Assembly: GCA_000002445.1 (NCBI GenBank) | Contig: CH464491.1 | Span: 192,001-256,000 of the forward strand | DNA length: 64,000 bases | Source: Trypanosoma brucei | Taxonomy: Eukaryota | Direction: 5' to 3' | Part shown: one piece after another, positions 21,613 to 62,412 of the stretch | Position numbering within the stretch: the first letter of the stretch is position 1 | How the letters are laid out: every line of letters starts with the position of its first letter | Program-made: the position numbers and the translations under genes | The notes under the pieces: generated by a model | Told to the model about the DNA's origin: nothing | The model's database searches: none | The model's input: only the letters and a program-made list of their open reading frames with translations

Positions 21613-22243
21613 GCATTCAGCAACTCTTCTTTCCTCTTCTTTTCCCGGCCACATTGCTACAGCCACCTTAGGAGGGGGGAGACGGATGTTGCGTTGCGGT
21701 GGGGAATTGTCGAACTGATGACAGAGTGGAACTTGTTTGAAACGTGTTGTGGGGGTGGAAAGCTGTTGGATTCTTGCAGAACGTGTTGCTTTCTTCCGAT
21801 CTGAGGTAGTACCTGTTATCACCTTTCCGAAGTGGATTCCCCTTCTCTTCCTGTTGCTTCAGCTTACATCATTTATTCCCTTCATTGTCTTGTTCCCTTG
21901 ACGAAAGTGTGTCCAGACGAAATTCGTTTTAGCTTTTTTCTTGTGGAAGGAAGAGGTAAAGGTAGATATCGGGGAAGACACCCTGACGCATTACCGCGCG
22001 TAGCCGTTTCCCCTAAATTACAAGCTGCACTTCTCTCTTCATTGTGACTTGACAGTAGAAATGTGAGTGTACGTGTTCGACAGATGTATTCAGTGGGATC
22101 GCATTTACCACTCCTTTATGGTTGATCACATATCCCTGTGTGTGCTTTTTGCGTCACCTCTTTCTTTCCCTCTTTCAAATTTGTTTTTGTTCATTTTCGC
22201 GTTCTACAGTAGGGAATTATCGTCGTGGAAGCGTCGAAGGGTA

Positions 22244-39814: not shown

Positions 39815-41020
39815 TCCGGGACCTGAGCGCAACCAGCTATTTGGTTCTCTGCGTCGTGAGTTATGGCACAACATCTGAGCAATTACAGAATGTGTCTTGG
39901 AAGTGCTTATGTTTCGACTGCACAGTTTGTTCGTGCTCGCAAGATCGTAATATGAACCTACGCAGGTTCCTTTCTTTCTTTGAGCATGGATATGTGCTCC
40001 CTCTTCAATGTGACTCCGTTGGCACCACATCATTTCTATTTATTTTGCATTTGCGCGGGACATAATGTGTCACTGCTGCATACGAAAGCACTGTTTGGTG
40101 GTGTAAGGGATTGGACCGATGATGGGGTGTTTTTTTGTTTGTGTCGAAGGGTATTGTAAGGGAGTTTTTTTTCTTTATTTGTTGATTTCTCTATTTTTTC
40201 CCCCTTCCTTCTATTATCTACAGTTGTTAACTAGTTTGTTTTCTCTTTAATATTTTATGTTTGTTCTCGAAGCAAATGTGGTAGATTTCCATAGGGGCAG
40301 CATCGCCGGTTGTTATATATTTCCCTTTTGTCGCTCCCCCTCAGCCAACCCGAAGCTACGGATGGGTACCAAAAGTGTGGAGTAAAGATGAAAGTGTGAA
40401 GGGTGGTGGCATCCTTAAGTCAGCGCTTGCTGGCACCGTATGCGACTCCTTTCCTTTCCATTGTTATTTGTGTCCCTTCGCTCACCTTCCCCTCCGAAAA
40501 AAAAAAAAACGTTTAAATATTTAATGCAATCGATTTTTCTTTTGGGTTTCTTACAAAGGTATGCTTCTTGATTTTGTTTGTTTTTACTACTTTAAAAAAA
40601 CGGTGTCTTCCTTCCGACTAGGGAAGGGGAGAAGAGTTGGTGCGTGCGGCTGCATGAGTAAAACGGTACCGGGACCGGGCTCTCTAATAGACATGAGGGA
40701 GGTCAATGGCACATTCGCATATATATATCATTTTATCTTTTAACACTATGGGGGTTTATTTTCGTTTTTGAAGCTGAGCATGCGTGGGAAAATGAGGCGG
40801 TGGGGGAGGAGATTCCTTGAAGTCGCTTTCGTCATGTGCTATCCGCAAGACTCTTTGAGGGGTCAGTTTCCGAGGGAGACAGATAACAACATCATCATAA
40901 TGTACTCAACCACACACACAAAAAGCAATAACTCATTGCACCCTTTCATTTTCTTTTCCACCTCGACCGATCTCTCTCTAATTCACGGCTCGTGTTGTGT
41001 TTATGTGACAGTAGGAGGGA

Positions 41021-44000
41021 ATGGAGGTGTTCGATCTGGCGGCCTTTCGCACTAGGATGAATGATGTGGAGAGGGATGTCAGGGTAATGGCATTGTTTGA
41101 CCTCCAACAGGCGTTGAAGTCGACCGTTTTTAAACCCGACAGCGTAACGTTAAGTAAAATAGTAGAGTATGTTACGACGTGCTTTGCACAGAGCGAACCT
41201 TGTAGGGAAGTTCGATGCAATGCAATAAGACTTGTCCCACAGCTACTCCTTTTGTCCGGTGAGAAGGACCAGGAACGTTTAGTATCGCTCCTCTGCACAA
41301 GTTCCACTTCACAAAGGGCGCGTTTCGGCGAGAAAGGGTATTCGGAGCTGCACGACAGCGCCGCTCGTGCCCTCAAACTGGCTTGCGAGTGCATGTCTTC
41401 AAAGGCCCGAGCAGACGTCGAGAGTTGGCAGCGTCTGGTGCCTGTTGCACGGAAGATCGCCGACGCACTGTCATCTGCGTTGGAGAAGGGAGTGGAGGGA
41501 GTTGTTAGGGAGGGGATATACGACTGCATTGGGGTCCTCATATATCCGTTTGGTAGGGTATTCATATGTGATGTTGGTTGTGTTTTGACCAAAAACGCTT
41601 TGGCCGATGTCCATCACACGGGCCAGTTGCGTAGACGTGCTATTAGTTTCCTATCGTTAGCATCTCCGTTTCTTTCGGAGGATCTGTTCGATGCCGTTTT
41701 TGAAGTTGGAGTCCGCGGGTTACGGGAGGGAAATCACCGTGGTGCGGTCGTCATGCCTTATTTACAGTTGTACGAAGGTTTGGTTAAGGGTTGCCCATCA
41801 CGTGCGAAGACGGGTGCACTCGAAACTATGAAATTCCTCACCGACGGACTCAGTGCACGTTTAAGTCACGAAAGCGCGGATGCGGATGCATTCGATGACG
41901 ATGATTACGAAGTGTGTGACGCTACAGTGCGGCTGATGCACTTGATGGTTTGTCAGTATTCCAAGGAACTGGCTACCATCCATTGTGCTCTTTTTGTCCA
42001 AGCACTAGAGATTGCCAGGTTTGATCCCAATTACTGCGACAACATGGGGGGCCTTGATGGTTGCGATTCGTCGGATGCATCCGGGTTGTATTTCACGGAG
42101 GACGATACGGACATGTCGTGGAGACTGCGGATGTGGGCAGCTCGATTACTTGCGTTATTGATTGAACTGTCTCCCTTTTCCACGGAATTAACACATCAGC
42201 TAGGTTGTGAGGTCTTATCCTTAATTGGGGACCGTGTGGAGGAGGTTCAACTTGCCGCTATTCATTTCGTTGACACCGTCATCCAGAGTTCGAGGGGTGC
42301 ATCTGTTTGTACATCGCTGTTGCTGTTTCTGCAGGGTGCAATCGACCCTTTGTTAGGTGCTCTGAACACCCGAGAGCCGAAGGTAGTTGTTGCGGCTGCC
42401 AAAGCGCTCCAGAACCTTTTCTATTTCCACTGGAGCGTTTTCACGACGGAGGTGTGCCGCGCACATGACATTGTGGATAAGTTGTTAAAGGCCCACCTGA
42501 CTGGTAAGGAATATGCGGTCGTTGAGCTTACCGCGCTCGCTGTGCGCATGTTGGAGGGTACCTCTCATGGCCAACCAAATATTAAGTTGGTTACCAAGCT
42601 CCTGGATACAGTTTACGCGGCGGTAGATGCGTATGTGTGCGGTGGGATTGGTCAAATTGTTGTTTGCTCGGTGAAGGCCATGGCGCATACCTCCGGACTT
42701 GCGGGCGCTGCTTACTGTGAAAGGTGCATGGAGCTTTACATATCACTCGCGCTGAACGCCAATTTCGGTGGTGAACTGATTTCCTCCGCTGTTGAGGCAA
42801 CCAGGCACTGTATGTCTACGTTTGCGGCATCACTGTCTGTGGACTACTTTCGGCGTTGCGGAGGGCGTTTAGTGGTGCTATCGGAGGGAAGGCAAGTTGC
42901 CATTCGTTTGCTGAAGGATTTGACGGCTTCCGTGCCGGCGGCTCAGCTCCAACCCCAGGAGCTGGAACGACTGAGTAATAGTATCGGAAGGCAAGACCGT
43001 GCGGTGCAGCAACACATTGTGTCCATTGTGTGCAACGCTCTTGATAACAGCGGCCAACTTACCGCGGAAACGTTGGAGGATATGTTCGAGTTTGCGCGGT
43101 CAAACTCTCTAAAAAGTGGTGATCGTTTGTTGGTTCAAGCAACGCTCGAGATGTTGGAGAAGATTTGTAGGAGGTTCTCCAATTTAGGTGGACGAATAGT
43201 GGACCAACTGCTTCCAACCGTTTGGGAGATATTATCGTCCGCACCAAAATGCGCTGGTCATCACCCCTTGCTGCTTGTGAGAGGCACCGCGGTGCTGATC
43301 CGCTCGCTGCACCAGATGCTGGAGCCCGCGCAGCGTTCTGACTTGGTTGAACAAACACTTCGGTACGTTTCCCGGTCGAAGTTTCGTGAAACGAGTAGTG
43401 AGATACTAAGAGGTGTAGCATCGGTAGACGAAGGCATACTCGAGAGGGTTGGTTCACTCATGTCTGGGGACGATTCGCTTCTCTGCATTTGTGTGGGTAC
43501 CATAGGAATGTCCGTACCGCTGCCCGATATGTGGGAGGCACGGCTTTTTAGATTTCTTTCGTCCACCGGTGCCGAGAACTTAGGTTCTGTTGTGCCTCTG
43601 GCTGTGGGTCGTGCTGTCTCGAATGCACAAAATCGTTCTCTCATGGAGCGGGTTGTAGAATCAGCAACGAGAAACACAGGCGGTGCAGCTTTATTTTGGA
43701 GGGCGATCCATGAGGCTGCACTCACCACGGTAGCTGGGGCAGAATTATCTCCCTTTAGTGATCCGTTCTTCTGCAAGGGCGTCGTAGAAAAGCTTATGGA
43801 AAATCTGCTCGAGGATGATACGGAGACTGCTGCCACCGTTTTGGGAAGTTTTGCTCCGTTTGTCCGTGATTATCTGATTGACATAACGGCAACTCATTTG
43901 AGCGATGAGTTGGACTCCAAGAAGGCTGTGTGCATAACTGTGCAGCGTTATTTGCTCTCGAGTGTCAAAAATACCGATGAATGCCCCAGGTTGGTGAGCG

Positions 44001-44683
44001 CTATTGAGAGGGCTTTGCGTTGTCTCAGTCGCAAGGCAGATTTAAGGGTTCGATTTGCCGCACTTCAACTTTTCGCCACGCTCCTCTCGGTGAAACCACA
44101 TCTTCTTATTGGTTCGTATGTTCGAGATGTGGTGTACCCATGCGTCCTTGAAGAGTTGTTAGAGGACCCCACTCTCGTGCTCGCCATCAACCTTGGAAGT
44201 TGTACTCACAGGGAGGACAGGGGAAAAGAGATGCGGAAGTTGGCGTTTGAGTGCGTTTCAATGCTGCTCCGTGATGCGGAAGACCGGGGAAAGGAAAGTA
44301 TCCTGGAATACTGTGGCCGCTATGAGGAACTTGGCCGATGTCTTGTTCATGCTTGCGGACCGAGAGGAGGGGGAGAGACAGACGGAGACATAAACACTAA
44401 GGCAATGGACCTCATTGTGCGGTTTCTACGACTTTGCCCGTCATCACCCTGCGACGGTTCTCAGGTGATGGTTTTGTACGAAAAGCTCAAGATGGCGCTA
44501 GGGGTGGACATTGAGCGCACTGCTCAAGACGCCTCCAAGAAGCAACTCTTGAAGAGGCAAGCACTCAACTGCATCATGTGTCTTAGTGAGTGGCCACCTT
44601 TCTCATGTCACCCACAGTGGCAGTCGCTCGTTTTACTCGCTCAACAAAATCCGCTGTTGCCAGAAGCAATCAAAGTGACGTGA
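41021..44683 (+). CDS. CAND1: CAND1/TIP120-like HEAT-repeat protein (cullin-associated NEDD8-dissociated protein)
   Basis: At 1220 aa it matches CAND1 in size. The N-terminus (…MNDVERDVRVMALFDLQQALKSTVFKPDS…) parallels the CAND1 N-terminus (…[27 protein letters not shown]…). It is an all-helical HEAT-like repeat throughout. ATG at 41021. Confidence 0.65.
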   Translation: MEVFDLAAFRTRMNDVERDVRVMALFDLQQALKSTVFKPDSVTLSKIVEYVTTCFAQSEPCREVRCNAIRLVPQLLLLSGEKDQERLVSLLCTSSTSQRARFGEKGYSELHDSAARALKLACECMSSKARADVESWQRLVPVARKIADALSSALEKGVEGVVREGIYDCIGVLIYPFGRVFICDVGCVLTKNALADVHHTGQLRRRAISFLSLASPFLSEDLFDAVFEVGVRGLREGNHRGAVVMPYLQLYEGLVKGCPSRAKTGALETMKFLTDGLSARLSHESADADAFDDDDYEVCDATVRLMHLMVCQYSKELATIHCALFVQALEIARFDPNYCDNMGGLDGCDSSDASGLYFTEDDTDMSWRLRMWAARLLALLIELSPFSTELTHQLGCEVLSLIGDRVEEVQLAAIHFVDTVIQSSRGASVCTSLLLFLQGAIDPLLGALNTREPKVVVAAAKALQNLFYFHWSVFTTEVCRAHDIVDKLLKAHLTGKEYAVVELTALAVRMLEGTSHGQPNIKLVTKLLDTVYAAVDAYVCGGIGQIVVCSVKAMAHTSGLAGAAYCERCMELYISLALNANFGGELISSAVEATRHCMSTFAASLSVDYFRRCGGRLVVLSEGRQVAIRLLKDLTASVPAAQLQPQELERLSNSIGRQDRAVQQHIVSIVCNALDNSGQLTAETLEDMFEFARSNSLKSGDRLLVQATLEMLEKICRRFSNLGGRIVDQLLPTVWEILSSAPKCAGHHPLLLVRGTAVLIRSLHQMLEPAQRSDLVEQTLRYVSRSKFRETSSEILRGVASVDEGILERVGSLMSGDDSLLCICVGTIGMSVPLPDMWEARLFRFLSSTGAENLGSVVPLAVGRAVSNAQNRSLMERVVESATRNTGGAALFWRAIHEAALTTVAGAELSPFSDPFFCKGVVEKLMENLLEDDTETAATVLGSFAPFVRDYLIDITATHLSDELDSKKAVCITVQRYLLSSVKNTDECPRLVSAIERALRCLSRKADLRVRFAALQLFATLLSVKPHLLIGSYVRDVVYPCVLEELLEDPTLVLAINLGSCTHREDRGKEMRKLAFECVSMLLRDAEDRGKESILEYCGRYEELGRCLVHACGPRGGGETDGDINTKAMDLIVRFLRLCPSSPCDGSQVMVLYEKLKMALGVDIERTAQDASKKQLLKRQALNCIMCLSEWPPFSCHPQWQSLVLLAQQNPLLPEAIKVT

Positions 44684-46309: not shown

Positions 46310-46630
46310 GGCACTGGCCGGATGATGGGATGCCCGTTCGGATGCATAGTGCTTTCTGTAGCCTTTGCTACGTGTGCGTGGTGGAATTCTAGTTTTCTTT
46401 CGTGTTTTGCCGTAACGTCCGCTATGGTTTCGTATTTTTTGTTGTTGTGTCGTATGCGCCATTGCCTTTACCATGTTGGTGTCACTTTCATTGCTTATTG
46501 TTCTCTTCGCGTTTGTATTTGTTTCATTGTCTCAATTTGCGGAGGAATCACACAGACGCACACGTAACGTGGTGTGTGCTGGATTACTTGTCCCCAAGCA
46601 TTAGACAGTGGCGTCGTCTCAGTAGTAGGA

Positions 46631-48853
46631 ATGCCTCACAAGGAGGCTGAGGTCGGTACTCTCGGATTTAAGACTCCCGCGCGTAGGTCCAGATGCATCG
46701 GCGACCAGGGATTTCATTCGGCCACGAAGCCCTGGGTATCGCCCCATTCATTAGTTAAGGTGAGCCCTAGGTTAAGGGTCCCATCCACTTCTAGGTTACC
46801 TGCACTTGCGGAGGCTCCCGTATTTCCTCGTGCCCTTGTCCCATCCAAAGCGCTAGGTCCAGTTGCAATATCAAAGGCCCCCCTTGCGGCACAGTTGGAA
46901 GCTTTTGTGCGCCGTGAATATAAGATTTATTCCACCGGGAACCGCGATTGCACGCATGTGGACACCTTGCACATAGTGAGGGAGGCCTTTTCGGTCTTCC
47001 TGGAACACTTCTCAGAATATAGAGAGGTGCTATCTCTCATCCGCGACGAGTACGAGGCGGCATTCCAGGAGCTCCTTAGTGAGGTTAAGCGCCTCCGAGC
47101 TGTTGAGTTGGAGACAAGCAGTGACCGTAGTGTGCACGCGATGGAGATGTTAAAACAGCGGGAGGCCTTTAAGTCGATTGTTAGCAATCACTATGCTCAA
47201 CTTCAGGCAACTGAAGGGATAGTTCATTCCCTGCGCGACCAAATTACTTCGTATGAAGAGTCTAACGAAACGCTACGAGCCCAACTGAAGAAGGCGAAGG
47301 AAGAAACCCGGGAGGCTACGGATACATCCAAATTGTTAACAAAGTCCATGATTGAGGAGGCCGCTCGTAACTCTCAGCTCCTTGCGGCGCGCACGGCAAA
47401 TGAGAGGGAAATAGGTCGCTTGAAGGTTCAAGTGGATATGGTGAGGGAAGAACTGAAGGATGTGGAGAGCAGATACACCGCACTTTTGGAGAAAACACTA
47501 TGCACTGGTGGGCCGGATACGATTTTCAAGGGTAAAGACGTGCGAGCTAAGAAGAAACTTGATCAAGAATGCGAGCAGGAAGCGAAGAAGAAGCTTGAAG
47601 AATCTGAAGAGAATGCGAGACAGAAGGCATCTGAGGAGGAGGAAAGAAGGAATCGGGATAACGCTTACTTTGCTCTCATTAATGAGCGCATTGACGAATT
47701 ACTCCTCGAGCGGGAGCAGTTAAAGCAGCAGTTGGCTGACGCACTTGCGAGCCGTTGCGCTTCTGCCTGCGGTAGTGGTGGGGGTGGTCGGCCTGCAAGC
47801 ACCTCCCGCGCAAGAAGGTTCTCCGCAGATCCAGGAGCTCTGGAGAATGACCGACGACTTGTAGAGGGTGATGCCACCTACAGTAGGTTGATTGCTGCAT
47901 GGTTACGGGAGGAGCAGATGACGGGTGCTGAGTTAGACCGACTTGATGTGCTGATACCCCCTGGTGCGTCAGAGGATCATCCATTTGGGTTTTTAAAAGC
48001 TACCCTCCCCGTTCGAAATCGGTACCTGAAGAGGGAGGACACCATAGATATGTTGAACAGTTGGTGGGGGTTCCGGCGGAATTCGTTTGATTCGTCGATA
48101 AAACATCACTTTATGTGTTGGTTGCAAAAAACAACTGGATCTGAGTCAGGTGCGCAGGAATTAGGTGTGAACATAGTTCACGTCTGCGAGCACAACATTT
48201 ATGATCCCGATTGTCGTGCATTTCTCTTAATATTTCGAGAGTGTGTACCTGAAGACGTTGTTCATGCGTGGACGAAAGATATAGCGTATTTCGAGGAGCT
48301 ATGCCGTGAGTCTATGAGTGCTCACCGTTTCGTCCGCTGCTCAGTACTTTATGATAAACTCCGGAACAAATTACAAGAAAAGACGTATTTGAACATGCTA
48401 GAATTGCGCCTTTACCTCTGGCGTAACAGCGATGCGAATGGAATGATCTCCGTTGATTTTCTCTTTAGGAAAGACTCTCGCTTTCTGTACTTACTGAAGA
48501 AGCAGCTGCTCAGAGAGGTGGAGGAGTTCACTCTGCGGGTGGTTGAGGCAATTCGCTCAGTTGCCCTCGACGCAGATACCGTAAAGCTTCAAGATGTAGT
48601 AAACGCACTTAGCGCTCAGGATCCCGGTATTCCACAGGGCACGCTGCGCCGTCTGGTGGCGGAGGCAACTCAACTAACTTCTATGGATGTTGCTACGTGT
48701 GGAGTGGACTTCACCGTACGATTGCGGCCCCTTATCTACCGGTTCCGAAGCGCCGTTTTATTGAGGCGGGTAACGCCTCCTGTTGATACAAGTCAGCTGA
48801 ATCCAAATATATTTGACGCGAAGGCAATTGTTGAAGAAGCAGAGGAGGTGTAG
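46631..48853 (+). CDS. Hypothetical coiled-coil protein
   Basis: The track start 46574 is GTG; the first ATG is 46631 (MPHKEAEV…). A central ~250 aa is a heptad/charged coiled coil (…LRAQLKKAKEETREATD…EEAKKKLEESEENARQKASEEEERRNRD…). A C-terminal globular region follows. Confidence 0.55.
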   Translation: MPHKEAEVGTLGFKTPARRSRCIGDQGFHSATKPWVSPHSLVKVSPRLRVPSTSRLPALAEAPVFPRALVPSKALGPVAISKAPLAAQLEAFVRREYKIYSTGNRDCTHVDTLHIVREAFSVFLEHFSEYREVLSLIRDEYEAAFQELLSEVKRLRAVELETSSDRSVHAMEMLKQREAFKSIVSNHYAQLQATEGIVHSLRDQITSYEESNETLRAQLKKAKEETREATDTSKLLTKSMIEEAARNSQLLAARTANEREIGRLKVQVDMVREELKDVESRYTALLEKTLCTGGPDTIFKGKDVRAKKKLDQECEQEAKKKLEESEENARQKASEEEERRNRDNAYFALINERIDELLLEREQLKQQLADALASRCASACGSGGGGRPASTSRARRFSADPGALENDRRLVEGDATYSRLIAAWLREEQMTGAELDRLDVLIPPGASEDHPFGFLKATLPVRNRYLKREDTIDMLNSWWGFRRNSFDSSIKHHFMCWLQKTTGSESGAQELGVNIVHVCEHNIYDPDCRAFLLIFRECVPEDVVHAWTKDIAYFEELCRESMSAHRFVRCSVLYDKLRNKLQEKTYLNMLELRLYLWRNSDANGMISVDFLFRKDSRFLYLLKKQLLREVEEFTLRVVEAIRSVALDADTVKLQDVVNALSAQDPGIPQGTLRRLVAEATQLTSMDVATCGVDFTVRLRPLIYRFRSAVLLRRVTPPVDTSQLNPNIFDAKAIVEEAEEV

Positions 48854-53036: not shown

Positions 53037-54830
53037 CATTTAAACAAATAGAATTTCCATACAAAAAGCAAAGCCTTCTTTCCATAAACATCCAGACCAT
53101 AGATATGAGATACATACAGAACAAGTGCACGAACCCATTTGTATGCACTCGGGGGAAAGCAACTAATCACATGAGATCCATGCATGAACTCACTTGTATA
53201 TGTGCATAATGGGTTTGTTTACACACTTAACTCGTTCATTCAATTTTTTCTGTTTGGTCCTGTTGCGGTCATCGCCGGTCGTAATATTGCGTTTCTTTCT
53301 TCCCCTTTGTTGAAACTATGGCTTCTCCCCTTTTCTTGATGGTGAAGGAACGAATAAGGGAGTGCGGGGGAGACGATCAAGCACTATTAACGAAGATACG
53401 GCAGCCGAAAAGAGCTGCTTTTCTCTTCATCCTGGTCCACTCTGTTTTTTGTCATATTTTTGGCGATCAACTGCTGCGCCACAGTGCTTGTTGTTATTTC
53501 CCCTCTTTGCTTTCTCCCGCTTCATGTGTTTGATTTCCTCTTCTCTTTTGCTCTCCTAGCGTTATTTGTTGTTATTTTTATGCGGGTGTTGAGTATTATG
53601 ATAAACGCGCCGCGTGGCATAGAATGTAAACACACATACAGAGAAAACAAAGCAAATCAACGGTGCATCGCTCTCAGGTTTGTGTGTTGGACTCACAATA
53701 ATGTTTTTGACCCTCTTTTTTTCGCGTTTTACTAATCTGAATTCCGATTATTATTTTTCGCTTACCTGCCCTCTCACATGTACTTCTTTTTTTTTTTAAT
53801 TTAACTTTTTAAAAGTGGTTTCATTGCTATTGTTGTTATTTACTGGTGATATTTTTCCCGTCCCCAATCGTTTCTTTCCTCGTTTCGCCTCCTCAGAATT
53901 GAGAAACGAATGGAAGAAAACTCAAGCACGGCAGAATGGCAAATGTTGAAACATAATTACGTATATTTAAGTATATATCTATAGAAAGAGGGAGAAAAAG
54001 GGGGAAAAGGCAAAAAAAGAGAGGGCGAACGTGGTGCATTTCGCGGAAAGGCTGGGAGAGTGAACCTCAAAACGTGTCTGTGCTTGTGTGTGGAAGTTAG
54101 GAGGCCGTTTCTAGTCACAAAGGTTGCAGCTGCTATGAGGGAAATACATGTGGGCAACACGGAATTAAAGAAGGAAAGAGGGGCTCTAAATGCGTTGAAA
54201 AGGACAGGAAAGAAATTTTAAAAATTGCGCATTTCTGTTTTCTTTTCCTCATTTTCTTTTTGCGAAAGAAAAGCATATGCGGGCAATGCGTTTGATATTG
54301 CATGCGTAACAGGTGTTTATATATGCATGTGTGTATAAGGCGGGACACGGGGAATGGGGGAAAATGAAAGGTAGTGAGAGAGAAGAGGAAAGGGGTAATG
54401 GAGAGAAATACAAGCGAAATATGACACAACGGGGTGCAGGTTCTATGGTAACAGCAGAAAGACGCGCACCCCTCGCTCAAATAATAGCAACCCTTCCTCA
54501 TTTTCTATTTACATTTTATCCTCCTCTTTTACCTTTGCTTTGCTAGTTTTAATGATTTGTTTCTCCCCTTGCTGAGGCCGCATTTCAGCTTTCACATTTT
54601 TCTGCCAGTTTAATCCCAGGACCCACTGTCCGACCTCTACACGCCTGCTGTGGTACTGTTGACGTTTCTTTACCCTTCGGAGGAAGTACGTTTGGCTGTG
54701 TTTAAATGTTTGTTTTCCTTCCCCTTCCCCTATCATTCCTTTTCACTTCCTCATTTTTATCCTTTGCTATTGTGGTACGCGGGAACATCTTGTTGCCTCA
54801 TCACCATTGGACTCCCTCCCTTTAAAGCTG

Positions 54831-56804
54831 ATGATTAGGGTGCCCTCCCGCTGGCCATGCTCGTCATCACCCGTCGCCCTTGTGCAAGTTAATGACGACT
54901 TCGTGGCAATATGTGGCGTGGTTTCATCAGATGAAGAATTAGCATCGTGGGAGCTGGACTGTAGCATAACATTAAATCGTCAGGTAGCCGAGAGGGTCAC
55001 TGCACAGGATTTCTCACCTGCGGGGACTCATGAGGTATGCTTCATCGGTCCTTCAAAGCAAACTAAAAGACGATTTGTGGAGGTTCCCGTCCATCCAGGT
55101 GGCGGGGGTGACACTCTTCGAGTATTGACGCCACTTAGCACGTATGAGGCCAAAACAGTTTTGCTTGAGGGCCCTCGAGTAAGTACACCTGGTTTTATGG
55201 AACGACTTTTTGCCTCGCTAGTTGGACGGTACGTAGTCGTTGATTGTGACGTCATGACACAAGAAGGATTACAGTTTCGCGTAAAAGACGCTGAGCTGAA
55301 GAGAGGGTATCGTGGCCTGGCGTTGGTGGGTTCAACAGCCCGTGTAAAACTGAATCAGAGGTCTGCTAAATATTTTTGGCCAAGCGATGTGCTCGTTGGA
55401 TTGGAGGAGCAGGCACAGGAGCTAAGAACAGTGATGCAAGCCATGCTACAGTCCCCAGGGCGTTGGCTAGGTGTTTCTCTTCATGATTCGTCCGGCTGCG
55501 AGGCCCTGACAGTTGTTCGCAAGTGCGTAGCTGACGCAAACGGAACGCTGGTGTGGTGGTCCCCATCGTCTGTTTACGGTCAGGGAGGGGACTATTGTGC
55601 AAGTCGACTCATTGTGCTGTGTATACCTGACATGGATGAGGTCTTCCCATCTTCGGACAGTTCGTTGGCGGGTCTGACCGTGCGGCTGCTGCGAGGAAGC
55701 ATCGACAGTTTGTTGAATAGCGGTTCTAGCGAGAAACCTGCCCTGGTGTTGGTCGGCATCACTAAGAATGAAATCATTGGAGTGGCAAACTCGCTCTTTG
55801 CCGCAAAGATATCGTTTGAATTTCCTGACGTCGACAAGCGGGCTGTCCTTCTGGCACATGTTCGCGGGGGCGATAGGATGGACCATATGAGTGAAGCGCA
55901 CACGCTTGTTGGCCTTTCCCGCTCCGAAGTCCTGGACGCGGCGCGACGGCAACCCCGATCTCGTGGCCCTCTCAATAAAGTTTTGCGGTGGTCGGACATT
56001 GGCGGTCTCGACGATGTGAAGGATCGCTTACACCGCGCTTTGATCCTCCCTCAACTGGAGCCTGGGCTGTTTGCCCGTTTTGGTCTGACACCCCCTCGTG
56101 GGATACTTTTGTACGGTCCACCGGGATGCGCTAAAACGAGTTTAGTTAAAGCATTGTGCTCGGAGGGATGCTTCTCTTTTATTTATCTTGACTTCGCGGG
56201 GCTCATCAGCGCATATGTTGGAGAATCTGAACGGATATTGCGTGATGCGTTTCACCGGGCAGCTCGCCAGGCACCATGCATTGTTTTTTTTGATGAGGTC
56301 GATGCTATTGGTGGAAAGCGCGCGATGAATTCCCGCGACGGTGATCAGGCACGGCTCCTTTCAACCCTCCTTACGGAGATGGACGGGTTTTCTTCATCTA
56401 ACGGGGTATGTTTTGTCGGTGCCACTAATACACCACATCAGATTGATGCTGCCCTGCTTCGTCCCGGTAGGTTCGACTATCTCGTGTATGTTCCGCTTCC
56501 GCCCCTGGGAGACCGGCGCAGGGTTCTATCGCTTGTGCTTGGAAACACAACGGCGGATCTCGACAAACTTGCCCGCGTCACCGAGGGCTTCAGCGGGGCT
56601 GATCTCCCGGCGCTTGCAACGAGTGTCCTTCTGGAGTTGTTGGACGGCACCGATGAGGGTAGCGCTTCGGAGTGCCTAAATGACTCCGAGGCACTAACCC
56701 AACTTCTCGTCTCTCGAGCTGGGGAGTTCCACAAGACCTCATACGATGTTGCGGCGCTTGAGAGGTTTAACAGAGACTGCTCTTCCGACTCGGGAGCTGT
56801 ATGA
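54831..56804 (+). CDS. AAA+ ATPase (Cdc48/PEX1-PEX6-type D2 domain) with non-canonical N-terminal region
   Basis: Motifs seen: Walker A GPPGCAKT, Walker B IVFFDEVD, SRH/arginine finger …LLRPGRFDYLVYVPLP…. The track start 54807 is TTG; the first ATG is 54831. The N-terminal ~400 aa lack clear Walker motifs. Confidence 0.8.
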   Translation: MIRVPSRWPCSSSPVALVQVNDDFVAICGVVSSDEELASWELDCSITLNRQVAERVTAQDFSPAGTHEVCFIGPSKQTKRRFVEVPVHPGGGGDTLRVLTPLSTYEAKTVLLEGPRVSTPGFMERLFASLVGRYVVVDCDVMTQEGLQFRVKDAELKRGYRGLALVGSTARVKLNQRSAKYFWPSDVLVGLEEQAQELRTVMQAMLQSPGRWLGVSLHDSSGCEALTVVRKCVADANGTLVWWSPSSVYGQGGDYCASRLIVLCIPDMDEVFPSSDSSLAGLTVRLLRGSIDSLLNSGSSEKPALVLVGITKNEIIGVANSLFAAKISFEFPDVDKRAVLLAHVRGGDRMDHMSEAHTLVGLSRSEVLDAARRQPRSRGPLNKVLRWSDIGGLDDVKDRLHRALILPQLEPGLFARFGLTPPRGILLYGPPGCAKTSLVKALCSEGCFSFIYLDFAGLISAYVGESERILRDAFHRAARQAPCIVFFDEVDAIGGKRAMNSRDGDQARLLSTLLTEMDGFSSSNGVCFVGATNTPHQIDAALLRPGRFDYLVYVPLPPLGDRRRVLSLVLGNTTADLDKLARVTEGFSGADLPALATSVLLELLDGTDEGSASECLNDSEALTQLLVSRAGEFHKTSYDVAALERFNRDCSSDSGAV

Positions 56805-56952: not shown

Positions 56953-57588
56953 ATGGATTGGACTGATCGTGTCCTACTAGAGGATGATAACGATATGGGA
57001 AAAAGCATAGTTAGTCACCATGTGCTGATGAACTGTTCACAGAGGTCAAACATCAAGGACAGTAATGTGCAGACATTATCCACGGAGATGCTCCACTGGG
57101 ATGACTACAGGGAGGCCCATGGAATAAACGATGGTACACCGAAGATGGCAGACACATTTCAAAACGCTTGTGAACCATTATTTCAAGGGCATGTTTGCCG
57201 CTCTGGAGGTAGCACCAAAAGGCTTCTTTCCGTTGCAACGAAACCGGTTCTAGGTGAGGGTGGCGATCGAACATTCTGTTCCGAGATGCAGCACTGGGAT
57301 GACTATAGGGTAAAAAATAATATTCAAGACGGGTCTCCAGCTATGCAGTGTCTTTTTCGTCAATTTGACGGTCATGATATGTTCATTCTGGACAGTGGGT
57401 GGAAACTGTTAACGCTGAAACAAATGTGTATTACCTCGACGCGGCAGGCGTATGGTGCAAGCGTTAACCAGCGTGTTTCAGAGATGGTTCGATGGGAGGA
57501 GTCTCAAAACCAGCAAGGGATAAATTGCTTCCCAGCTAGCGGATCTGCAGAGGCAGTTAGTGCCATAACACCTTACAACAGTGGGTGA
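56953..57588 (+). CDS. Small hypothetical protein with internal duplicated 'HWDDYR' motif
   Basis: ATG at 56953 lies ~15 nt after a pyrimidine tract plus AG (56860-56940). The 211-aa product contains two copies of a ~30-aa unit (TEMLHWDDYREAHGINDGTPKMADTFQ / SEMQHWDDYRVKNNIQDGSPAMQCLFRQF). Same strand as the unit. Confidence 0.45.
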   Translation: MDWTDRVLLEDDNDMGKSIVSHHVLMNCSQRSNIKDSNVQTLSTEMLHWDDYREAHGINDGTPKMADTFQNACEPLFQGHVCRSGGSTKRLLSVATKPVLGEGGDRTFCSEMQHWDDYRVKNNIQDGSPAMQCLFRQFDGHDMFILDSGWKLLTLKQMCITSTRQAYGASVNQRVSEMVRWEESQNQQGINCFPASGSAEAVSAITPYNSG

Positions 57589-57595
57589 CTACGGA

Positions 57596-57722
57596 AATTC
57601 TTTTCCCCCCTCTTCCCCTTATTTTGTCGTTCACAATCCTGATTTGCTCCTCGGAATTTCTCTTTGGATTGCTAAGGTGGCTCCCCTTACCTTATTGTTG
57701 TTGTTTTGCTCGCCGCTATCAA
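57596..57722 (+). promoter_or_regulatory. Polypyrimidine tract plus AG upstream of the NUP gene (putative trans-splice acceptor region)
   Basis: ttcttttcccccctcttccccttattttgtcgttcacaatcctgatttgctcc…cttaccttattgttgttgttttgctcgccgctatcaAG precedes ATG 57751. Confidence 0.5.
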
Positions 57723-57750
57723 GTGACTTCCTTAGTGTACTTAGTCCCTC

Positions 57751-60700
57751 ATGAGCGCAGGATTCGGAGGTGGTTTTGGCCAACCGGCAGCAACGGGATT
57801 TGGTCAGCAGCCTACCGGTGGTTTTGGGCAAGCACCGCAGGGTGGGGCGTTTGGCCAGGTTGCTCCAGCGGCTACTGGTTTTGGTCAGCCCTCTCAGAGT
57901 GCTGTCACCGGAGGTTTCGGGCAGACAAATACTGGTGGTTTCGGACAACCTGCAGCAACTGGTTTCGGTCAACCTGCTCAGGGTGCTGTCACCGGAGGTT
58001 TCGGGCAGACAAATACTGGTGGTTTCGGACAACCTGCAGCAACTGGTTTCGGTCAACCTGCTCAGAGTGCTGTCACCGGAGGTTTCGGGCAGACAAATAC
58101 TGGTGGTTTCGGTCAGCCTGCTCAGGGTGGGTTTGGCCAGACAGCGGCAGCGGCTAACGCCTTTGGACAGGCGGGCCCCTCAGGTGGCTTCGGGCAGACA
58201 AATACTGGTGGATTCGGCCAGCAGTCCAACAGTGGGTTTGGTCAAGCTGGTCGGGGCGCGACAGCCGGATTTGGGCAGCCCGGAACTGGTTTTGGTCAAC
58301 CAGCTACCGGAGGATTCGGTCAAGCAACTTCTGCCTCTCCATTTGGACAAGCAGCGGCAGGCCGCGGTGTTGGTGGTGGTTTTGGTACTGCGGCTGGCAC
58401 AGTTGGTGGTTTTGGGCAGCCTGCTGCGACGGGTGGTTTCGGTCAAACGGCAACTACAGGTGGATTCGGGCAGCCTGCTCAGGGAGCTGCAGCTGGTGGT
58501 TTTGGTCAACCAGCTACCGGAGGATTCGGTCAAGCAACTTCTGCCTCTCCATTTGGACAAGCAGCGGCAGGCCGCGGTGTTGGTGGTGGTTTTGGTACTG
58601 CGGCTGGTACAGTTGGTGGTTTTGGGCAGCCTGCTGCGCCGGGTGGTTTCGGTCAAACGGCAACTGCAGGTGGATTCGGGCAGCCCGCTCGGGGAGCTGC
58701 AGCTGGTGGTTTTGGTCAACCAGCTACCGGAGGATTCGGTCAGGCAACTTCTGCCTCTCCATTTGGACAAGCAGCGGCAGGCCGCGGTGTTGGTGGTGGT
58801 TTTGGTACTGCGGCTGGCACAGTTGGTGGTTTTGGGCAGCCTGCTGCGACGGGCGGTTTCGGTCAAACGGCAACTACAGGTGGATTCGGCCAGCCTGCTC
58901 AGGGAGCAAATACTTTCGGACAGGGGACTCCTTCGGCTGGTGGTTTTGGGCAGGCCGGTCGAGGCGTGACTGGAGGCTTCGGTCAAACTGGCGTGACCGG
59001 TGGTTTCGGGCAAACGGCAACTACAGGCGGATTTGGCCAACCTGCTCAGGGGGCTGCAACCGGTGGTTTTGGTCAAGCTGGTCGGGGCGCAGCGGACGGA
59101 TTTGGTCGACCTGCTCAGGGAGCTGCAGCTGGTGGTTTTGGTCAACCAGCTACCGGAGGATTCGGTCAAGCAACTTCTGCCTCTCCATTTGGACAAGCAG
59201 CGGCAGGCCGCGGTGTTGGTGGTGGTTTTGGTACTGCGGCTGGCACAGTTGGCGGTTTTGGGCAGCCTGCTGCGCCGGGTGGTTTCGGTCAAACGGCAAC
59301 TACAGGTGGATTCGGCCAGCCCGGTCGGGGAGCTGCAGCTGGTGGTTTTGGTCAACCAGCTACCGGAGGTCTAGGGCTCGCGGGCGGAAGTGGTTTTGGC
59401 GCTGCTGCCGGCGCTGGTGGGTTTGGGCAGCAAAGCACTGCTTCCCCGTGGGGTGGTGGTGCCACCCCTGCGGCACCTGTCGATGTGTCTCTCCTGAACC
59501 TTCCGGAGTTTGCCGACAAGCCTTATGGCAACGTTTTACTCTTTGCGCCTGAGAAGCCACCAAAAAAACCAATTTCAGTTGGTCATACACCATCTCCAGC
59601 TGCCCCCTTCAACCCCATCTCGGTACCACGTTACCAACAAAGGATACCGGTGGGTATCCCAGCACCCACAGTGTCCGCTAACGTGAAGCTTCAACCTACG
59701 CCTTTTTCAACCTCAGCCTTATCCTCAGTGGAGCTTCGTGAATTGTTGAACGCTTCAAAAGTTAACTTGGGGGTATCCGATGATGTCCAAAAAATCGACT
59801 CACCGAAGGTCTCGCGGGTGGTGGCAGCTGGTGAGAAGCCGCCTTCACATGATGCGGCGGTCTTTGCGCCTGTGTGCTCAAAAGAGGAGTATATACTGGA
59901 TCCACCTCTAGCCACACTACAGGGGCTTGCGGTTCGACAGTTGCAGGAGGTTTATGGTTTTAGTGTTTACCGCCGGGATGGTAAGTGCTCCGTTCACTTT
60001 CTTGAGCCTGTGAACCTTGTTCGATGTGATATCGCTGAGATCGTTGAGCTTCGTCCTAGTGGTGAAGTTAAGCTTTATCCATGTGTGCAAAACCCTCCCT
60101 CCATCGGCCAAGGTCTCAATGTGAAAGCTCGTGTAACCGTGAACGGTGTTATTGGGACGACAAGCAACGACCTTCTTATCCGCTGCCAGAAAGAAGGTAA
60201 CAGATTTGAGTCTTACGATGTGAACACGGGGACGTGGGTTTACGTGATGAATGTTGGCGACGATGGTCAAAATGAATATGACGATGCTGACCGCGAAGTT
60301 GACATAGTCGAGACTGATACGCAGGTCCAAGATGGTGAGCAGTTTCCTGTTGCCAATGATATTGCTGACGGCGGGGTGCGTGCTATTTCCCAGCTGGACA
60401 CATGTGCCCAATTGAAAAGGTCTGATCCACCGTCACCACCATTTCTACAACAGCAGCAGCAGGTGCCCGTATTGCACCAAAATGAAGCGGTTTCAGCATT
60501 GTCGTTTTCACGGTATGCCCCATTTGACGATCAGTCTCTTATTCTTCCGCAACGCACGCAGAGGGTGTCTGTGCTGCGACAAGCTGTGCACCGCCCTGCT
60601 GCGGATACAACCTCGGGGATCTCCGACTTCGAACTGCCGTACACGCTTCCCAGCCCCAAGAAAACCCCTCTCTGTGAGCGGAAGGGCCCGTTGGTCGTGA

Positions 60701-62412
60701 AGGAACCCTACGCGAAGGCACACGGGCCTGTTTACGTTGTGAAGAGGGAGGACAGTAAGATGTACGAAATGAATGCAAGCGTGGTTTCGCGGGGCGCAAT
60801 GGCAAGTCTGAGTCGGAGTTTCCGATGTGGGTGGTGCACCGGAGGGCGTCTGGTTGCCCCAATGTTCGCCTGGGTTCGTGACGGGACAGAGAGTAGGCAT
60901 TCTGTGGATGAAGTTCTCGGCTCGCGAGTGGTTATGTCAACTGTTTACTTTGCCCATGCAACAAGTAAGCACTACTTGCAGAGTTGCGCCATATCAGTAC
61001 TGCGCGCGCTGTGTCGGCACGCGCACAGGGTGGATGCCTCTTCGGACAAGGAAGGCTTTTTCCCGCTTCTGGAGCTAGGATTGTGCCGAGACACCGGCTC
61101 CACCTCCCTTTCGACCGAAAAGTTACGTGAGGTTATCGCTGCTGTCGATGCCGTTCGTTTCGACGGAGCTTCTGCAGTGGGGGAGTCCACGGCACGGCAA
61201 GCCAAAACAATTCTTTCTCTACTCGATGCCCTTTATGGATTGCCTGATGCCGACGAGGCAGACAAAAATGCCATTACTGAGAGGCGTTACCTCACTCAAC
61301 TGCGGAGGCGGAACCTGAATTCGTGGTTGAAGACGGAGCTGGAATATATGGATTTGTGGACCGACCTGGACGTGGATGCGAACCCATCGCAAAAGTTACT
61401 TCGGAAGTTGCTGTGCGGCAAGCTACGGGAGGCCTCGTCTGTGGCGAAGGCATTGGGGAGCACAGAACTTTCACGCGTTGTAGGAATATGTGGAGAGGGG
61501 AACCATTTTGGGAGCTACGTGCAGACGTCCGACAATAGTTGCATAGACGAAGCACTTGGCATCCGGGAGCGTGTGGTGAGCCTCCTCTCTGGTATTGTTG
61601 AGCCTTTTGTCTCTCAGCCCCAGTACGCGTGGGCTGAGGACGAAAAGGGTGGCCGCACCGTTGCGAAGGTGCCATTGGCAGCAACATGGAAGCAGTTGCT
61701 GGGAGTATTTGCCTTCTACGGCTGCACACCTGACAGCTCCGCGGAGGAGACAATTGACTGTTTTCTCAAACGGCTTCGAGCACCAACCTCACGTCGTGAG
61801 AATTCCTTTCCTCCATACGCTGAACGTATCTCAGCTGACAAACTAGGAACAGGTCGCGGTCGGAGTTTCGTTTCCCTCGGGGAGTGGTTTCCTGATGCCG
61901 CGCTGAGCCTGTTGGAGGGTTTCGCGATGGGTGTGGCTCCCGCCGCCACTGCACTTCATCCACATTCATCAAGTTACTGTGCAACGGATTACTTGACACC
62001 ATTCATAATTATAGTAAGTGTCCGTGCTTTGAAGTTACAGCGCACAGACACCTATGACGACGCTGAAACAAAAGCACTTCTGGGGTTTGCCGCAGCGCTG
62101 GAGTGTCTTAGTGATGCGTGGTTCTGGGCTTTACTGCCGCTCCATATGATAGTTGACGACAAGTGCCGGGCTGTGGCTGTTGAGCAGTGTTTGCGCCGTA
62201 ACGCCCACCGGTTCCAGGGAGGGGCGTGCCGCACCAACACGGACTACGTACATTTGGCAGAGCTGTTGAAAATTAATGCTCGGCTGTTAGATGTGGAGAT
62301 GCTGTTAGAGAAAGTCCCGGCAGATGCACCTGTGAATGCGCCAAGCATTCGCACTCACTCGTCTCTGCAGGAAGCGCTTCACCGTTTCAGTCGGGGGTTT
62401 ACAAAGAGATGA
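57751..62412 (+). CDS. NUP158: Nup98-96-type FG nucleoporin (kinetoplastid Nup158-like)
   Basis: A 1553-aa product. The N-terminal ~565 aa is a GGFGQ/FGQ FG-repeat array. The segment …SVYRRDGKCSVHFLEPVNLVRCDIAEIVELRPSGEVKLY…GLNVKARVTVNGVIGTTSNDLLIRCQKEGNRFESYDVNTGTWVYVMN… aligns by eye to the Nup98 autoproteolytic domain (…VTLDGVWP…LIKSP…YRPETGSWVFKVSHF). It is followed by a ~700-aa helical Nup96-like C-terminal half. Confidence 0.85.
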   Translation: MSAGFGGGFGQPAATGFGQQPTGGFGQAPQGGAFGQVAPAATGFGQPSQSAVTGGFGQTNTGGFGQPAATGFGQPAQGAVTGGFGQTNTGGFGQPAATGFGQPAQSAVTGGFGQTNTGGFGQPAQGGFGQTAAAANAFGQAGPSGGFGQTNTGGFGQQSNSGFGQAGRGATAGFGQPGTGFGQPATGGFGQATSASPFGQAAAGRGVGGGFGTAAGTVGGFGQPAATGGFGQTATTGGFGQPAQGAAAGGFGQPATGGFGQATSASPFGQAAAGRGVGGGFGTAAGTVGGFGQPAAPGGFGQTATAGGFGQPARGAAAGGFGQPATGGFGQATSASPFGQAAAGRGVGGGFGTAAGTVGGFGQPAATGGFGQTATTGGFGQPAQGANTFGQGTPSAGGFGQAGRGVTGGFGQTGVTGGFGQTATTGGFGQPAQGAATGGFGQAGRGAADGFGRPAQGAAAGGFGQPATGGFGQATSASPFGQAAAGRGVGGGFGTAAGTVGGFGQPAAPGGFGQTATTGGFGQPGRGAAAGGFGQPATGGLGLAGGSGFGAAAGAGGFGQQSTASPWGGGATPAAPVDVSLLNLPEFADKPYGNVLLFAPEKPPKKPISVGHTPSPAAPFNPISVPRYQQRIPVGIPAPTVSANVKLQPTPFSTSALSSVELRELLNASKVNLGVSDDVQKIDSPKVSRVVAAGEKPPSHDAAVFAPVCSKEEYILDPPLATLQGLAVRQLQEVYGFSVYRRDGKCSVHFLEPVNLVRCDIAEIVELRPSGEVKLYPCVQNPPSIGQGLNVKARVTVNGVIGTTSNDLLIRCQKEGNRFESYDVNTGTWVYVMNVGDDGQNEYDDADREVDIVETDTQVQDGEQFPVANDIADGGVRAISQLDTCAQLKRSDPPSPPFLQQQQQVPVLHQNEAVSALSFSRYAPFDDQSLILPQRTQRVSVLRQAVHRPAADTTSGISDFELPYTLPSPKKTPLCERKGPLVVKEPYAKAHGPVYVVKREDSKMYEMNASVVSRGAMASLSRSFRCGWCTGGRLVAPMFAWVRDGTESRHSVDEVLGSRVVMSTVYFAHATSKHYLQSCAISVLRALCRHAHRVDASSDKEGFFPLLELGLCRDTGSTSLSTEKLREVIAAVDAVRFDGASAVGESTARQAKTILSLLDALYGLPDADEADKNAITERRYLTQLRRRNLNSWLKTELEYMDLWTDLDVDANPSQKLLRKLLCGKLREASSVAKALGSTELSRVVGICGEGNHFGSYVQTSDNSCIDEALGIRERVVSLLSGIVEPFVSQPQYAWAEDEKGGRTVAKVPLAATWKQLLGVFAFYGCTPDSSAEETIDCFLKRLRAPTSRRENSFPPYAERISADKLGTGRGRSFVSLGEWFPDAALSLLEGFAMGVAPAATALHPHSSSYCATDYLTPFIIIVSVRALKLQRTDTYDDAETKALLGFAAALECLSDAWFWALLPLHMIVDDKCRAVAVEQCLRRNAHRFQGGACRTNTDYVHLAELLKINARLLDVEMLLEKVPADAPVNAPSIRTHSSLQEALHRFSRGFTKR
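57901..58152 (+). repeat. Tandem 84-bp repeat (x3) inside the NUP FG domain (28-aa unit AVTGGFGQTNTGGFGQPAATGFGQPAQG)
   Basis: Near-identical copies begin at 57901, 57985 and 58069. Confidence 0.9.
58291..59390 (+). repeat. Tandem 210-bp repeat (~5 copies, one diverged) inside the NUP FG domain (70-aa unit …GGFGQPATGGFGQATSASPFGQAAAGRGVGGGFGTAAGTVGGFGQPAA…)
   Basis: The string tttggtcaaccagctaccggaggattcggtcaagcaacttctgcctctcc recurs at 58291, 58501 and 58711 (exact 210-bp spacing), then at 59137 and partially at 59347. The copy at ~58921 is diverged. Confidence 0.9.

What the first reader, a model, noticed from the sequence alone, without database searches (positions are those of the whole stretch)
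57751..62412. Nup98-96-type nucleoporin whose FG domain is built from nested, nearly identical tandem DNA repeats, with an apparently non-canonical autoproteolysis motif
The sequence shows a 1553-aa ORF beginning with ~565 aa of GGFGQ-type FG repeats, encoded by an 84-bp x3 array (57901-58152) and a 210-bp x~5 array (58291-59390). The copies are nearly identical at the nucleotide level, suggesting recent homogenisation and probable copy-number polymorphism or assembly collapse. The repeat flavour is GGFGQ, not the GLFG of opisthokont Nup98. By-eye alignment places the Nup98 autoproteolytic domain at ~59.8-60.27 kb. Where human Nup98 has the catalytic HF|S tripeptide right after …SWVFKVS, this protein reads …TWVYVMN-VGDDGQ…. 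If that alignment holds, the self-cleavage triad is absent and the protein may stay as one Nup98-96 fusion polypeptide. From memory, a failure to cleave has been suggested for trypanosome Nup158; I cannot verify that here.
Basis: partly seen in the sequence, partly recalled or inferred. Interest (0 to 1): 0.5.

Follow-up and report, generated by a model that had tools for sequence, protein, structure and literature searches.

The report
Trypanosome nucleoporin TbNup158, naturally uncleaved

Summary
Window 57751-62412 (+) is a 1553-aa ORF, 100% identical to the annotated nucleoporin of T. brucei gambiense DAL972, which is TbNup158. It has 58 FG motifs in aa 1-565 (37 GGFGQ, no GLFG), a Nup98-type autoproteolytic-domain fold (aa 707-834) and a Nup96 domain (aa 1215-1513). 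In a profile alignment the last strand, GTWVYVMN, matches human GSWVFKVS and yeast Nup116 GTYVFIVN. The next three residues are V-G-D, where canonical proteins read H-F-S in the same register. There is no H[FY][ST] at the domain junction. Other Trypanosoma, Leishmaniinae, Phytomonas and free-living Bodo saltans also lack the site.

All of this is published. DeGrasse 2009 reported the GGFGQ repeats, the beta-sandwich at 713-851, the missing catalytic residues and the lack of cleavage by Western blot and mass spectrometry. Asakawa 2015, Schmidt & Görlich 2015 and Obado 2016 extend it.

The DNA repeats are real: 84 bp x3, and four good 210-bp copies interrupted by a diverged 216-bp unit. Three assemblies give 1553, 1553 and 1552 aa, so they show no copy-number change or collapse. 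Between-strain differences cluster in the FG-coding DNA and look like gene conversion. Verdict: correct, already known, low interest.

The parts
57751..62412 (+). Complete TbNup158 gene (Nup98-Nup96 orthologue), 1553 aa plus stop codon
   Evidence: ORF listed. It is 100% identical to XP_011779253.1 of T. brucei gambiense DAL972 (P0001).
57751..59445 (+). Cohesive, charge-depleted FG-repeat domain, aa 1-565: 58 FG, mostly GGFGQ, with G/A-rich spacers
   Evidence: Motif counts and composition. The length and FG count equal those published by Schmidt & Görlich 2015 (565 residues, 58 FG). The GGFGQ flavour is published.
57865..58121 (+). 84-bp (28-aa) tandem array, 3 copies, 89-96% pairwise nucleotide identity
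   Evidence: TRF, the repeat finder family D3, pairwise counts.
58252..58881 (+). Three head-to-tail 210-bp (70-aa) units. Units 2 and 3 are 96.7% identical; unit 1 is 87% identical to the others.
58882..59097 (+). Diverged 216-bp FG segment that interrupts the 210-bp array
   Evidence: Start-to-start spacing of 426 between good copies; sequence and translation.
59098..59369 (+). Fourth good 210-bp unit (95-97% identical to units 2 and 3) plus a partial unit
59446..59868 (+). Linker between the FG domain and the folded domain, aa 566-706. It is conserved among kinetoplastids (NLPxFAxKPYGNVLLFAP...).
   Evidence: Consensus of alignment A2. Its function was not tested here.
59869..60252 (+). Nup98-type autoproteolytic-domain fold (beta-sandwich), aa 707-834, ending in the strand GTWVYVMN
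   Evidence: Pfam PF04096, E 3e-15. PDB profile search, E 5e-14 to 3e-10 against Nup116, Nup98 and Nup145N. AF2 model pLDDT 92. Foldseek TM 0.60-0.79 against APD crystal and NMR structures only.
60253..60261 (+). V835-G836-D837, the positions that hold the catalytic His-Phe-Ser/Thr in self-cleaving Nup98-96 and Nup145
   Evidence: Profile alignment register. No H[FY][STC] occurs here: the three H[FYW]x tripeptides in the protein are HFL 749, HYL 1074 and HFG 1252.
60262..61392 (+). Acidic stretch, then the N-terminal part of the Nup96-like moiety (aa 838-1214). It includes the conserved RSFRCGW segment.
   Evidence: Conserved columns in alignment A2. Equating RSFRCGW with the Sec13-binding strand of Nup96/Nup145C is my inference from memory and was not tested.
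61393..62289 (+). Nup96 alpha-solenoid domain, aa 1215-1513
   Evidence: Pfam PF12110, E 5.8e-28. The kinetoplastid profile matches human Nup96 (5a9q_5, E 1.1e-6) and Xenopus Nup96 (7vci_F, E 1.6e-6).

Best explanation
The gene encodes TbNup158, the Trypanosoma brucei orthologue of human Nup98-Nup96 and yeast Nup145.

The N-terminal 565 residues are a charge-depleted GGFGQ repeat domain. This domain forms the cohesive FG phase of the pore's permeability barrier. The middle domain keeps the Nup98 autoproteolytic-domain fold. It has lost the His-Phe-Ser/Thr catalytic tripeptide, which here reads Val-Gly-Asp, so no N-O acyl shift and no self-cleavage can occur. The protein is therefore built into the outer-ring (TbNup89) complex as a single FG/alpha-solenoid polypeptide through its Nup96-like C-terminal half.

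The FG-coding DNA consists of long units (84 bp and 210 bp) that are kept similar by gene conversion or unequal exchange.

Shown here: the architecture, the fold, the absence of the tripeptide and its absence across kinetoplastids, and the conversion-like polymorphism pattern. Taken from the literature: non-cleavage in vivo, outer-ring membership, and phase separation of the FG domain.
For: Identity: 100% match to the DAL972 protein. The cluster includes proteins named 'Nuclear pore complex protein 158'.

Architecture.

Fold: AF2 model pLDDT 92 and pTM 0.86. All 22 significant Foldseek PDB hits are Nup98, Nup145N or Nup116 APDs.

Missing tripeptide:
- The profile alignment puts VGD where canonical members have HFS.
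- All 14 trypanosomatid orthologues lack it at that position.
- So do Bodo saltans (ASE) and Phytomonas (DPN).

Literature:
- DeGrasse 2009 (PMC2742445): no catalytic residues, and no cleavage by Western blot and MS.
- Schmidt & Görlich 2015 (PMC4283134): the TbNup158 FG domain (aa 1-565) phase-separates.
- Asakawa 2015 (PMC4483485): Leishmania and Phytomonas also lack HFS.

Repeat dynamics:
- All 7 aa differences between DAL972 and TREU927 lie in the FG domain, at paralogous repeat positions.
- Against T. b. equiperdum there are 25 nucleotide differences in the 1695 FG-coding nt and 4 in the other 2967 nt.
- For 10 of the 14 differences inside the repeat units, the alternative base is already present at the paralogous position of another copy.
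Against: Nothing found here contradicts the identification.

Limits:
- Non-cleavage in vivo rests on published experiments, not on anything testable with these tools.
- The conversion-like pattern could partly reflect mis-assembly or mis-polishing of near-identical repeats in one or more assemblies.
- The T. b. equiperdum copy carries a compensated -2/-1 nt indel pair at 59114-59127, which may be a sequencing error.
Confidence: 0.96

Rival explanations
1. The protein is still split into Nup98-like and Nup96-like halves, either at a non-canonical self-cleavage site or by a separate protease.
For: The APD fold is fully retained and highly conserved: 35 invariant columns out of 136 among 14 species. 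An acidic linker follows the last strand, as in canonical proteins.
Against: No H[FY][ST] occurs at or near the junction in any of the 14 trypanosomatid orthologues. The positions equivalent to the nucleophile and the general base vary freely between species (V/E/I/A/D, then G/E/S/D/P, then D/G/E/A/R), so they are not under catalytic constraint. Published Western blot and MS show the full-length protein.
Confidence: 0.02
2. The near-identity of the FG-coding repeats, and the strain differences within them, are assembly artefacts. On this view the array is collapsed or mis-phased, and the true copy number differs.
For: Units of 210 bp at 95-97% identity are hard to assemble from short reads. 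The only indel between assemblies is a suspicious compensated frameshift. Several other species' gene models are N-terminally truncated just at the FG region (P0002, P0004, P0008, P0010, P0012).
Against: Three separately deposited assemblies give 1553, 1553 and 1552 aa with the same unit order. The copies carry enough diagnostic differences (7-28 nt per pair) to be placed. The predicted 158 kDa matches the published protein, for which MS peptides gave 35.7% coverage.
Confidence: 0.08
3. The retained but catalytically dead APD is a decaying remnant with no function.
For: The catalytic tripeptide is lost.
Against: The domain is the most conserved part of the protein from Bodo to Trypanosoma. The non-cleaving yeast paralogues Nup116 and Nup100 use the same fold as a docking module for Nup82/Nup159 (PDB 3pbp, top hit). 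TbNup158 contacts the Nup82/88 orthologue TbNup76 complex. A docking role is the likelier reading; this is an inference.
Confidence: 0.03

Closest known systems
TbNup158 (Tb927.11.980 / Tb11.03.0140) of Trypanosoma brucei brucei TREU927, as described by DeGrasse et al. 2009 and Obado et al. 2016
   Same: It is the same gene in a sister subspecies: 1553 aa in both, with 7 substitutions, all in the FG domain. [quoted passage not shown]
   Different: Only the 7 FG-domain substitutions, which sit at paralogous repeat positions.
Human NUP98-NUP96 and yeast Nup145 (self-cleaving peptidase family S59)
   Same: Same order of modules: cohesive FG domain, linker, APD beta-sandwich, acidic stretch, Nup96/Nup145C alpha-solenoid. 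The Nup96 part belongs to the outer-ring Y complex.
   Different: The HF(S/T) tripeptide is replaced by VGD, so there is no autoproteolysis. The FG flavour is GGFGQ with G/A-rich spacers rather than GLFG. The FG region has no charged insert of the kind a GLEBS motif would make: 1 D, no E or K, and 10 R in 565 aa.
Yeast Nup116 and Nup100 (non-cleaving Nup98 paralogues)
   Same: Nup116 is the best PDB sequence match to the APD (3pbp_B, E 5e-14). Both have an APD fold used without cleavage.
   Different: Nup116 and Nup100 end just after the APD and have no Nup96 part. Nup116 still has the His (…IVNH), whereas TbNup158 has Val.
Engineered uncleavable Nup98-Nup96 of Schizosaccharomyces pombe (Asakawa et al. 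2015)
   Same: It is a joint Nup98-Nup96 molecule that works as the sole product, and the authors cite TbNup158 as the natural precedent.
   Different: It is an artificial mutant of a normally cleaving protein. In kinetoplastids the uncleaved state is the natural, lineage-wide condition.

Membership tests
Nup98-Nup96 / Nup145 orthologue group (fused FG-Nup plus outer-ring alpha-solenoid) | N-terminal cohesive, charge-poor FG-repeat domain | tested here: met
   58 FG in 565 aa; 0.2% D+E and 1.8% R+K. It falls in the published Nup98-type class.
Nup98-Nup96 / Nup145 orthologue group (fused FG-Nup plus outer-ring alpha-solenoid) | Nucleoporin2 (PF04096) beta-sandwich domain | tested here: met
   57.1 bits against a cut-off of 28.4. 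AF2 plus Foldseek give TM up to 0.79 against 1ko6.
Nup98-Nup96 / Nup145 orthologue group (fused FG-Nup plus outer-ring alpha-solenoid) | C-terminal Nup96 (PF12110) domain in the same polypeptide | tested here: met
   98.2 bits against a cut-off of 25. Profile hits to human and Xenopus Nup96 chains.
Nup98-Nup96 / Nup145 orthologue group (fused FG-Nup plus outer-ring alpha-solenoid) | Physical membership of the outer-ring (Y / Nup84 / Nup107-160) complex with Sec13 | not testable with these tools
   Published affinity captures show it for TbNup158 (Obado 2016).
Nup98-Nup96 / Nup145 orthologue group (fused FG-Nup plus outer-ring alpha-solenoid) | GLEBS (Gle2/Rae1-binding) motif embedded in the FG domain. 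This is present in many members but not all; for example Nup145N and Nup100 lack it. | tested here: inconclusive
   There is no charged insert in aa 1-565, which argues against a GLEBS motif. No GLEBS profile was available to test it formally.
Active peptidase S59 (self-cleaving nucleoporin autopeptidase) | Catalytic His-(Phe/Tyr)-(Ser/Thr) tripeptide directly after the last beta-strand | tested here: not met
   VGD at aa 835-837, in a register that gives HFS in canonical relatives. The Pfam match ends at profile position 138 of 148.
Active peptidase S59 (self-cleaving nucleoporin autopeptidase) | Production of two polypeptides in vivo | not testable with these tools
   Published Western blot and MS show only the full-length protein (DeGrasse 2009).

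The most novel reading that the evidence does not exclude
The one aspect I did not find in the papers I read concerns the FG-coding DNA of TbNup158, which looks like a hotspot of ongoing gene conversion.
- Between T. brucei subspecies it diverges about 11-fold more per site than the rest of the gene.
- The changes are mostly swaps of variants between paralogous repeat positions.
- Each Trypanosoma species has rebuilt its FG domain from a different long unit (70/28 aa in T. brucei, 37 in T. melophagium, 76/19 in T. vivax, 53-166 in T. cruzi).
- The FG count nevertheless stays at about 46-58.
This would mean concerted evolution under a constraint on FG number and composition rather than on sequence.
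Probability: 0.55. Interest if true: 0.2.

Novelty: already known. Interest (0 to 1): 0.1.

Why it matters
A naturally uncleaved Nup98-96 matters for nuclear-pore evolution. It ties the main barrier-forming FG domain covalently and symmetrically to both outer rings. It also shows that autoproteolysis is dispensable. These points were made and tested experimentally in 2009-2016, so this window adds no new biology. The small additions here are two. First, the loss of the HFS site extends to the free-living bodonid Bodo saltans, so it predates the divergence of trypanosomatids from Bodo. Second, the FG-coding repeats show a gene-conversion-like polymorphism pattern without any change in copy number among the three assemblies examined.

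Tried and rejected
- Single-sequence phmmer against the PDB aligned the last strand only to Nup116. The local alignments to human Nup98 stopped about 30 residues short. A profile of 14 kinetoplastid APDs solved this.
- I looked for a displaced cleavage site. The three H[FYW]x tripeptides in the protein are HFL 749 (inside the conserved FLEPVNL strand), HYL 1074 and HFG 1252 (inside the Nup96 part); none is at the junction. HFS occurs in four other species' proteins, but at non-homologous places: in the Nup96 part of T. theileri, T. grayi and T. melophagium, and in an early APD strand of T. vivax. I rejected these as cleavage sites.
- Looking up the TREU927 protein to fetch its DNA returned nothing, so the DNA-level comparison rests on T. 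b. equiperdum alone.
- The position-by-position comparison of the downstream flank failed, probably because of an indel (717 apparent differences). I ignored it.
How far the loss extends beyond Bodo, for example into diplonemids or euglenids, could not be settled.
- The stop-free alternative-frame ORFs over the repeats (57770-58969 +, 58180-59355 -, 57585-58157 +) are by-products of the repeat, not genes.

Full report
**What is there**

Window 57751-62412 (+) is one uninterrupted ORF of 1553 codons. Its product is 100% identical over its full length to XP_011779253.1, 'nucleoporin, putative', of Trypanosoma brucei gambiense DAL972. Its 90% cluster holds the T. b. brucei TREU927 protein (1553 aa) and T. 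b. equiperdum proteins named 'Nuclear pore complex protein 158'. The window is therefore T. brucei chromosomal DNA, and the gene is TbNup158. All real ORFs of at least 200 aa in the 64 kb lie on the + strand. That fits a trypanosomatid polycistronic unit.

**Checking the observation**

The first 565 residues contain 58 FG dipeptides; the remaining 988 contain one. Thirty-seven are GGFGQ, and there is no GLFG or FxFG. The domain is 34% Gly and 19% Ala, with one Asp and no Glu or Lys.

At the DNA level, Tandem Repeats Finder reports two arrays:
- an 84-bp array x3.0 at 57874-58121 (95% matches);
- a 210-bp array x5.1 at 58287-59369 (75% matches).

Resolved copy by copy:
- The 84-bp copies are 89-96% identical.
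- The 210-bp array has three tandem units (58252, 58462, 58672), a diverged 216-bp unit (58882-59097), one further good unit (59098-59307) and a partial one.
- Units 2, 3 and 5 are 95-97% identical. Unit 1 is 87% identical to them.

It is slightly generous on 'x5, nearly identical', and its coordinates are about 30 bp off.

**Domain architecture**

Pfam gives Nucleoporin2 / 'Nup98-96 autopeptidase S59' at aa 712-831 (57 bits) and Nup96 at aa 1215-1513 (98 bits). A profile of kinetoplastid sequences matches Nup116, Nup98 and Nup145N APD chains in the PDB at E 5e-14 to 3e-10. It also matches human and Xenopus Nup96 at about 1e-6. An AlphaFold2 model of aa 707-842, built on 14 orthologues, has pLDDT 92 and pTM 0.86. 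Its 22 significant Foldseek hits in the PDB are all Nup98-family APD structures, with TM-scores of 0.60-0.79. The next hit has E 0.7.

**The cleavage motif**

The Pfam match stops at profile position 138 of 148, just before the motif. In the profile-to-PDB alignments, the last strand GTWVYVMN (aa 827-834) pairs with Nup116 GTYVFIVN(H) and human Nup98 GSWVFKVS. I projected the same profile register onto 150 representatives from a 1.8-billion-protein library. Canonical relatives read ...W.F.V.|HFS|(R/K)YGL, or they end at HF. TbNup158 reads |VGD|DGQNEYDD.

The three H[FYW]x tripeptides in the protein are HFL 749, HYL 1074 and HFG 1252. None is at the junction.

The equivalent three residues vary freely in all 14 trypanosomatid orthologues: VDA, ISE, EEG, ADD, DSR and others. 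They are also non-canonical in Phytomonas (DPN) and in the free-living bodonid Bodo saltans (ASE). The loss is therefore at least as old as the common ancestor of Bodo and trypanosomatids.

**Comparison with the literature**

- DeGrasse et al. [quoted passage not shown] - Obado et al. 2016 (PMC4758718) place it in the TbNup89 outer-ring complex. They argue that the uncleaved state keeps the FG-Nup symmetric.
- Asakawa et al. 2015 (PMC4483485) note the same absence in Leishmania and Phytomonas, and cite TbNup158 as a natural uncleavable Nup98-96.
- Schmidt & Görlich 2015 (PMC4283134) expressed TbNup158 aa 1-565 (58 FG, the same numbers I count). They showed that it phase-separates and described the GGFGQ motif and GA-rich spacers.

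**The repeats: what can be added**

Three separately deposited assemblies give 1553, 1553 and 1552 aa with the same unit order. I therefore see no evidence of copy-number polymorphism or assembly collapse.

There is a clear signature of exchange between copies:
- All seven amino-acid differences between DAL972 and TREU927 lie in the FG domain, at paralogous repeat positions (227/297/509; 376/518).
- Against T. b. equiperdum there are 25 nucleotide differences in the 1695 nt of FG-coding DNA, and 4 in the other 2967 nt.
- For 10 of the 14 differences inside the long units, the alternative base is already present at the paralogous position of another copy.

This fits gene conversion. Mis-polishing of repeats cannot be excluded, and the T. 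b. equiperdum copy has a suspicious compensated -2/-1 indel at 59114-59127.

Across species, each Trypanosoma has its own long perfect period: 70/28 aa in T. brucei, 37 in T. melophagium, 76/19 in T. vivax, and 53-166 in T. cruzi. Leishmaniinae have none. The FG count stays at 46-58. This is the familiar rapid turnover of FG repeats under a compositional constraint.

**Mechanism**

Shown here: the gene encodes an FG domain, an APD fold without its catalytic tripeptide, and a Nup96 solenoid, all in one reading frame.

Inferred from established chemistry: without the Ser/Thr nucleophile and the His base, the N-O acyl shift that cleaves Nup98-96 cannot occur.

From the literature:
- The protein is full-length in vivo.
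- It sits in the outer ring on both faces of the pore.
- Its FG domain forms a selective phase.

The retained and highly conserved APD most likely serves as a docking module, as it does in the non-cleaving yeast Nup116. This is an inference. It is supported only indirectly, by the reported contact with the TbNup76 complex.

**Verdict**

The feature is a textbook-level known protein of T. brucei. Novelty: already known. Interest: low.

Noticed in passing
window 56953-57588 (+): A 211-aa ORF lies 162 nt upstream of TbNup158 and has no Pfam match. It is also called as a 211-aa gene in T. b. equiperdum (L001 703-1338). By eye it has three copies of a motif of the form S-EM-x-HWDDYR...I-x-DG-x-P, the third degenerate.
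   Followed up: no
window 1-64000: Apart from 58180-59355 (-), a repeat-frame by-product, and 40978-41592 (-), a 204-aa ORF lying antisense to the TIP120/CAND1-like ORF and not examined, every ORF of at least 200 aa is on the + strand, which fits a single trypanosomatid polycistronic unit. Neighbours with Pfam hits: cyclin (2419-4263), Na/H exchanger (22067-24523), LRR protein (27298-30144), TPR protein (34027-37749), TIP120/CAND1-like (41021-44683), TSNAXIP1_N (46574-48853) and AAA ATPase (54807-56804). The ORFs at 13097-15487 and 17183-19702 have no Pfam hit.
   Followed up: partly
window 57585-58157 (+), 57770-58969 (+), 58180-59355 (-): Long stop-free ORFs (190-399 aa) lie in the other frames and on the opposite strand across the FG repeats. 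They are by-products of the G+C-rich repeat (GC 0.587 at 58-60 kb), not genes.
   Followed up: yes
window 59114-59127 versus L001 (T. b. equiperdum, GCA_003543875.1): A -2 nt and a -1 nt deletion 10 nt apart shift the frame for four codons (AQ-AA becomes VR-SC) and remove one residue. This is either a real compensated frameshift in the FG domain or indel errors in that assembly.
   Followed up: partly
window 57751-59445 versus L001 and P0017: Between-subspecies divergence is about 11-fold higher per site in the FG-coding DNA than in the rest of the gene (25 differences in 1695 nt against 4 in 2967 nt). Most differences swap bases that already exist at paralogous repeat positions (10 of 14). 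This is a gene-conversion-like pattern with no change in copy number.
   Followed up: yes
proteins P0019, P0021, P0023-P0029, P0032, P0040 (unnamed metagenome or transcriptome relatives): These are a dozen more distant proteins with an APD followed by about 650-980 further residues (P0025 is a shorter fragment, with about 250). All lack HFS at the junction (REV, TGD, SSN, TER, DDQ, EHP, ERE, ADS, ERD and others). They are probably other kinetoplastids or euglenozoans. Of the eight I looked up, none carries an organism name; P0025, P0027 and P0040 were not looked up.
   Followed up: partly
proteins P0005, P0006, P0009, P0011, P0013, P0014: The long-period perfect repeats in the FG domain are species-specific in Trypanosoma (periods of 37, 76/19 and 53-166 aa). 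They are absent in Leishmaniinae. FG counts stay at 46-58.
   Followed up: partly
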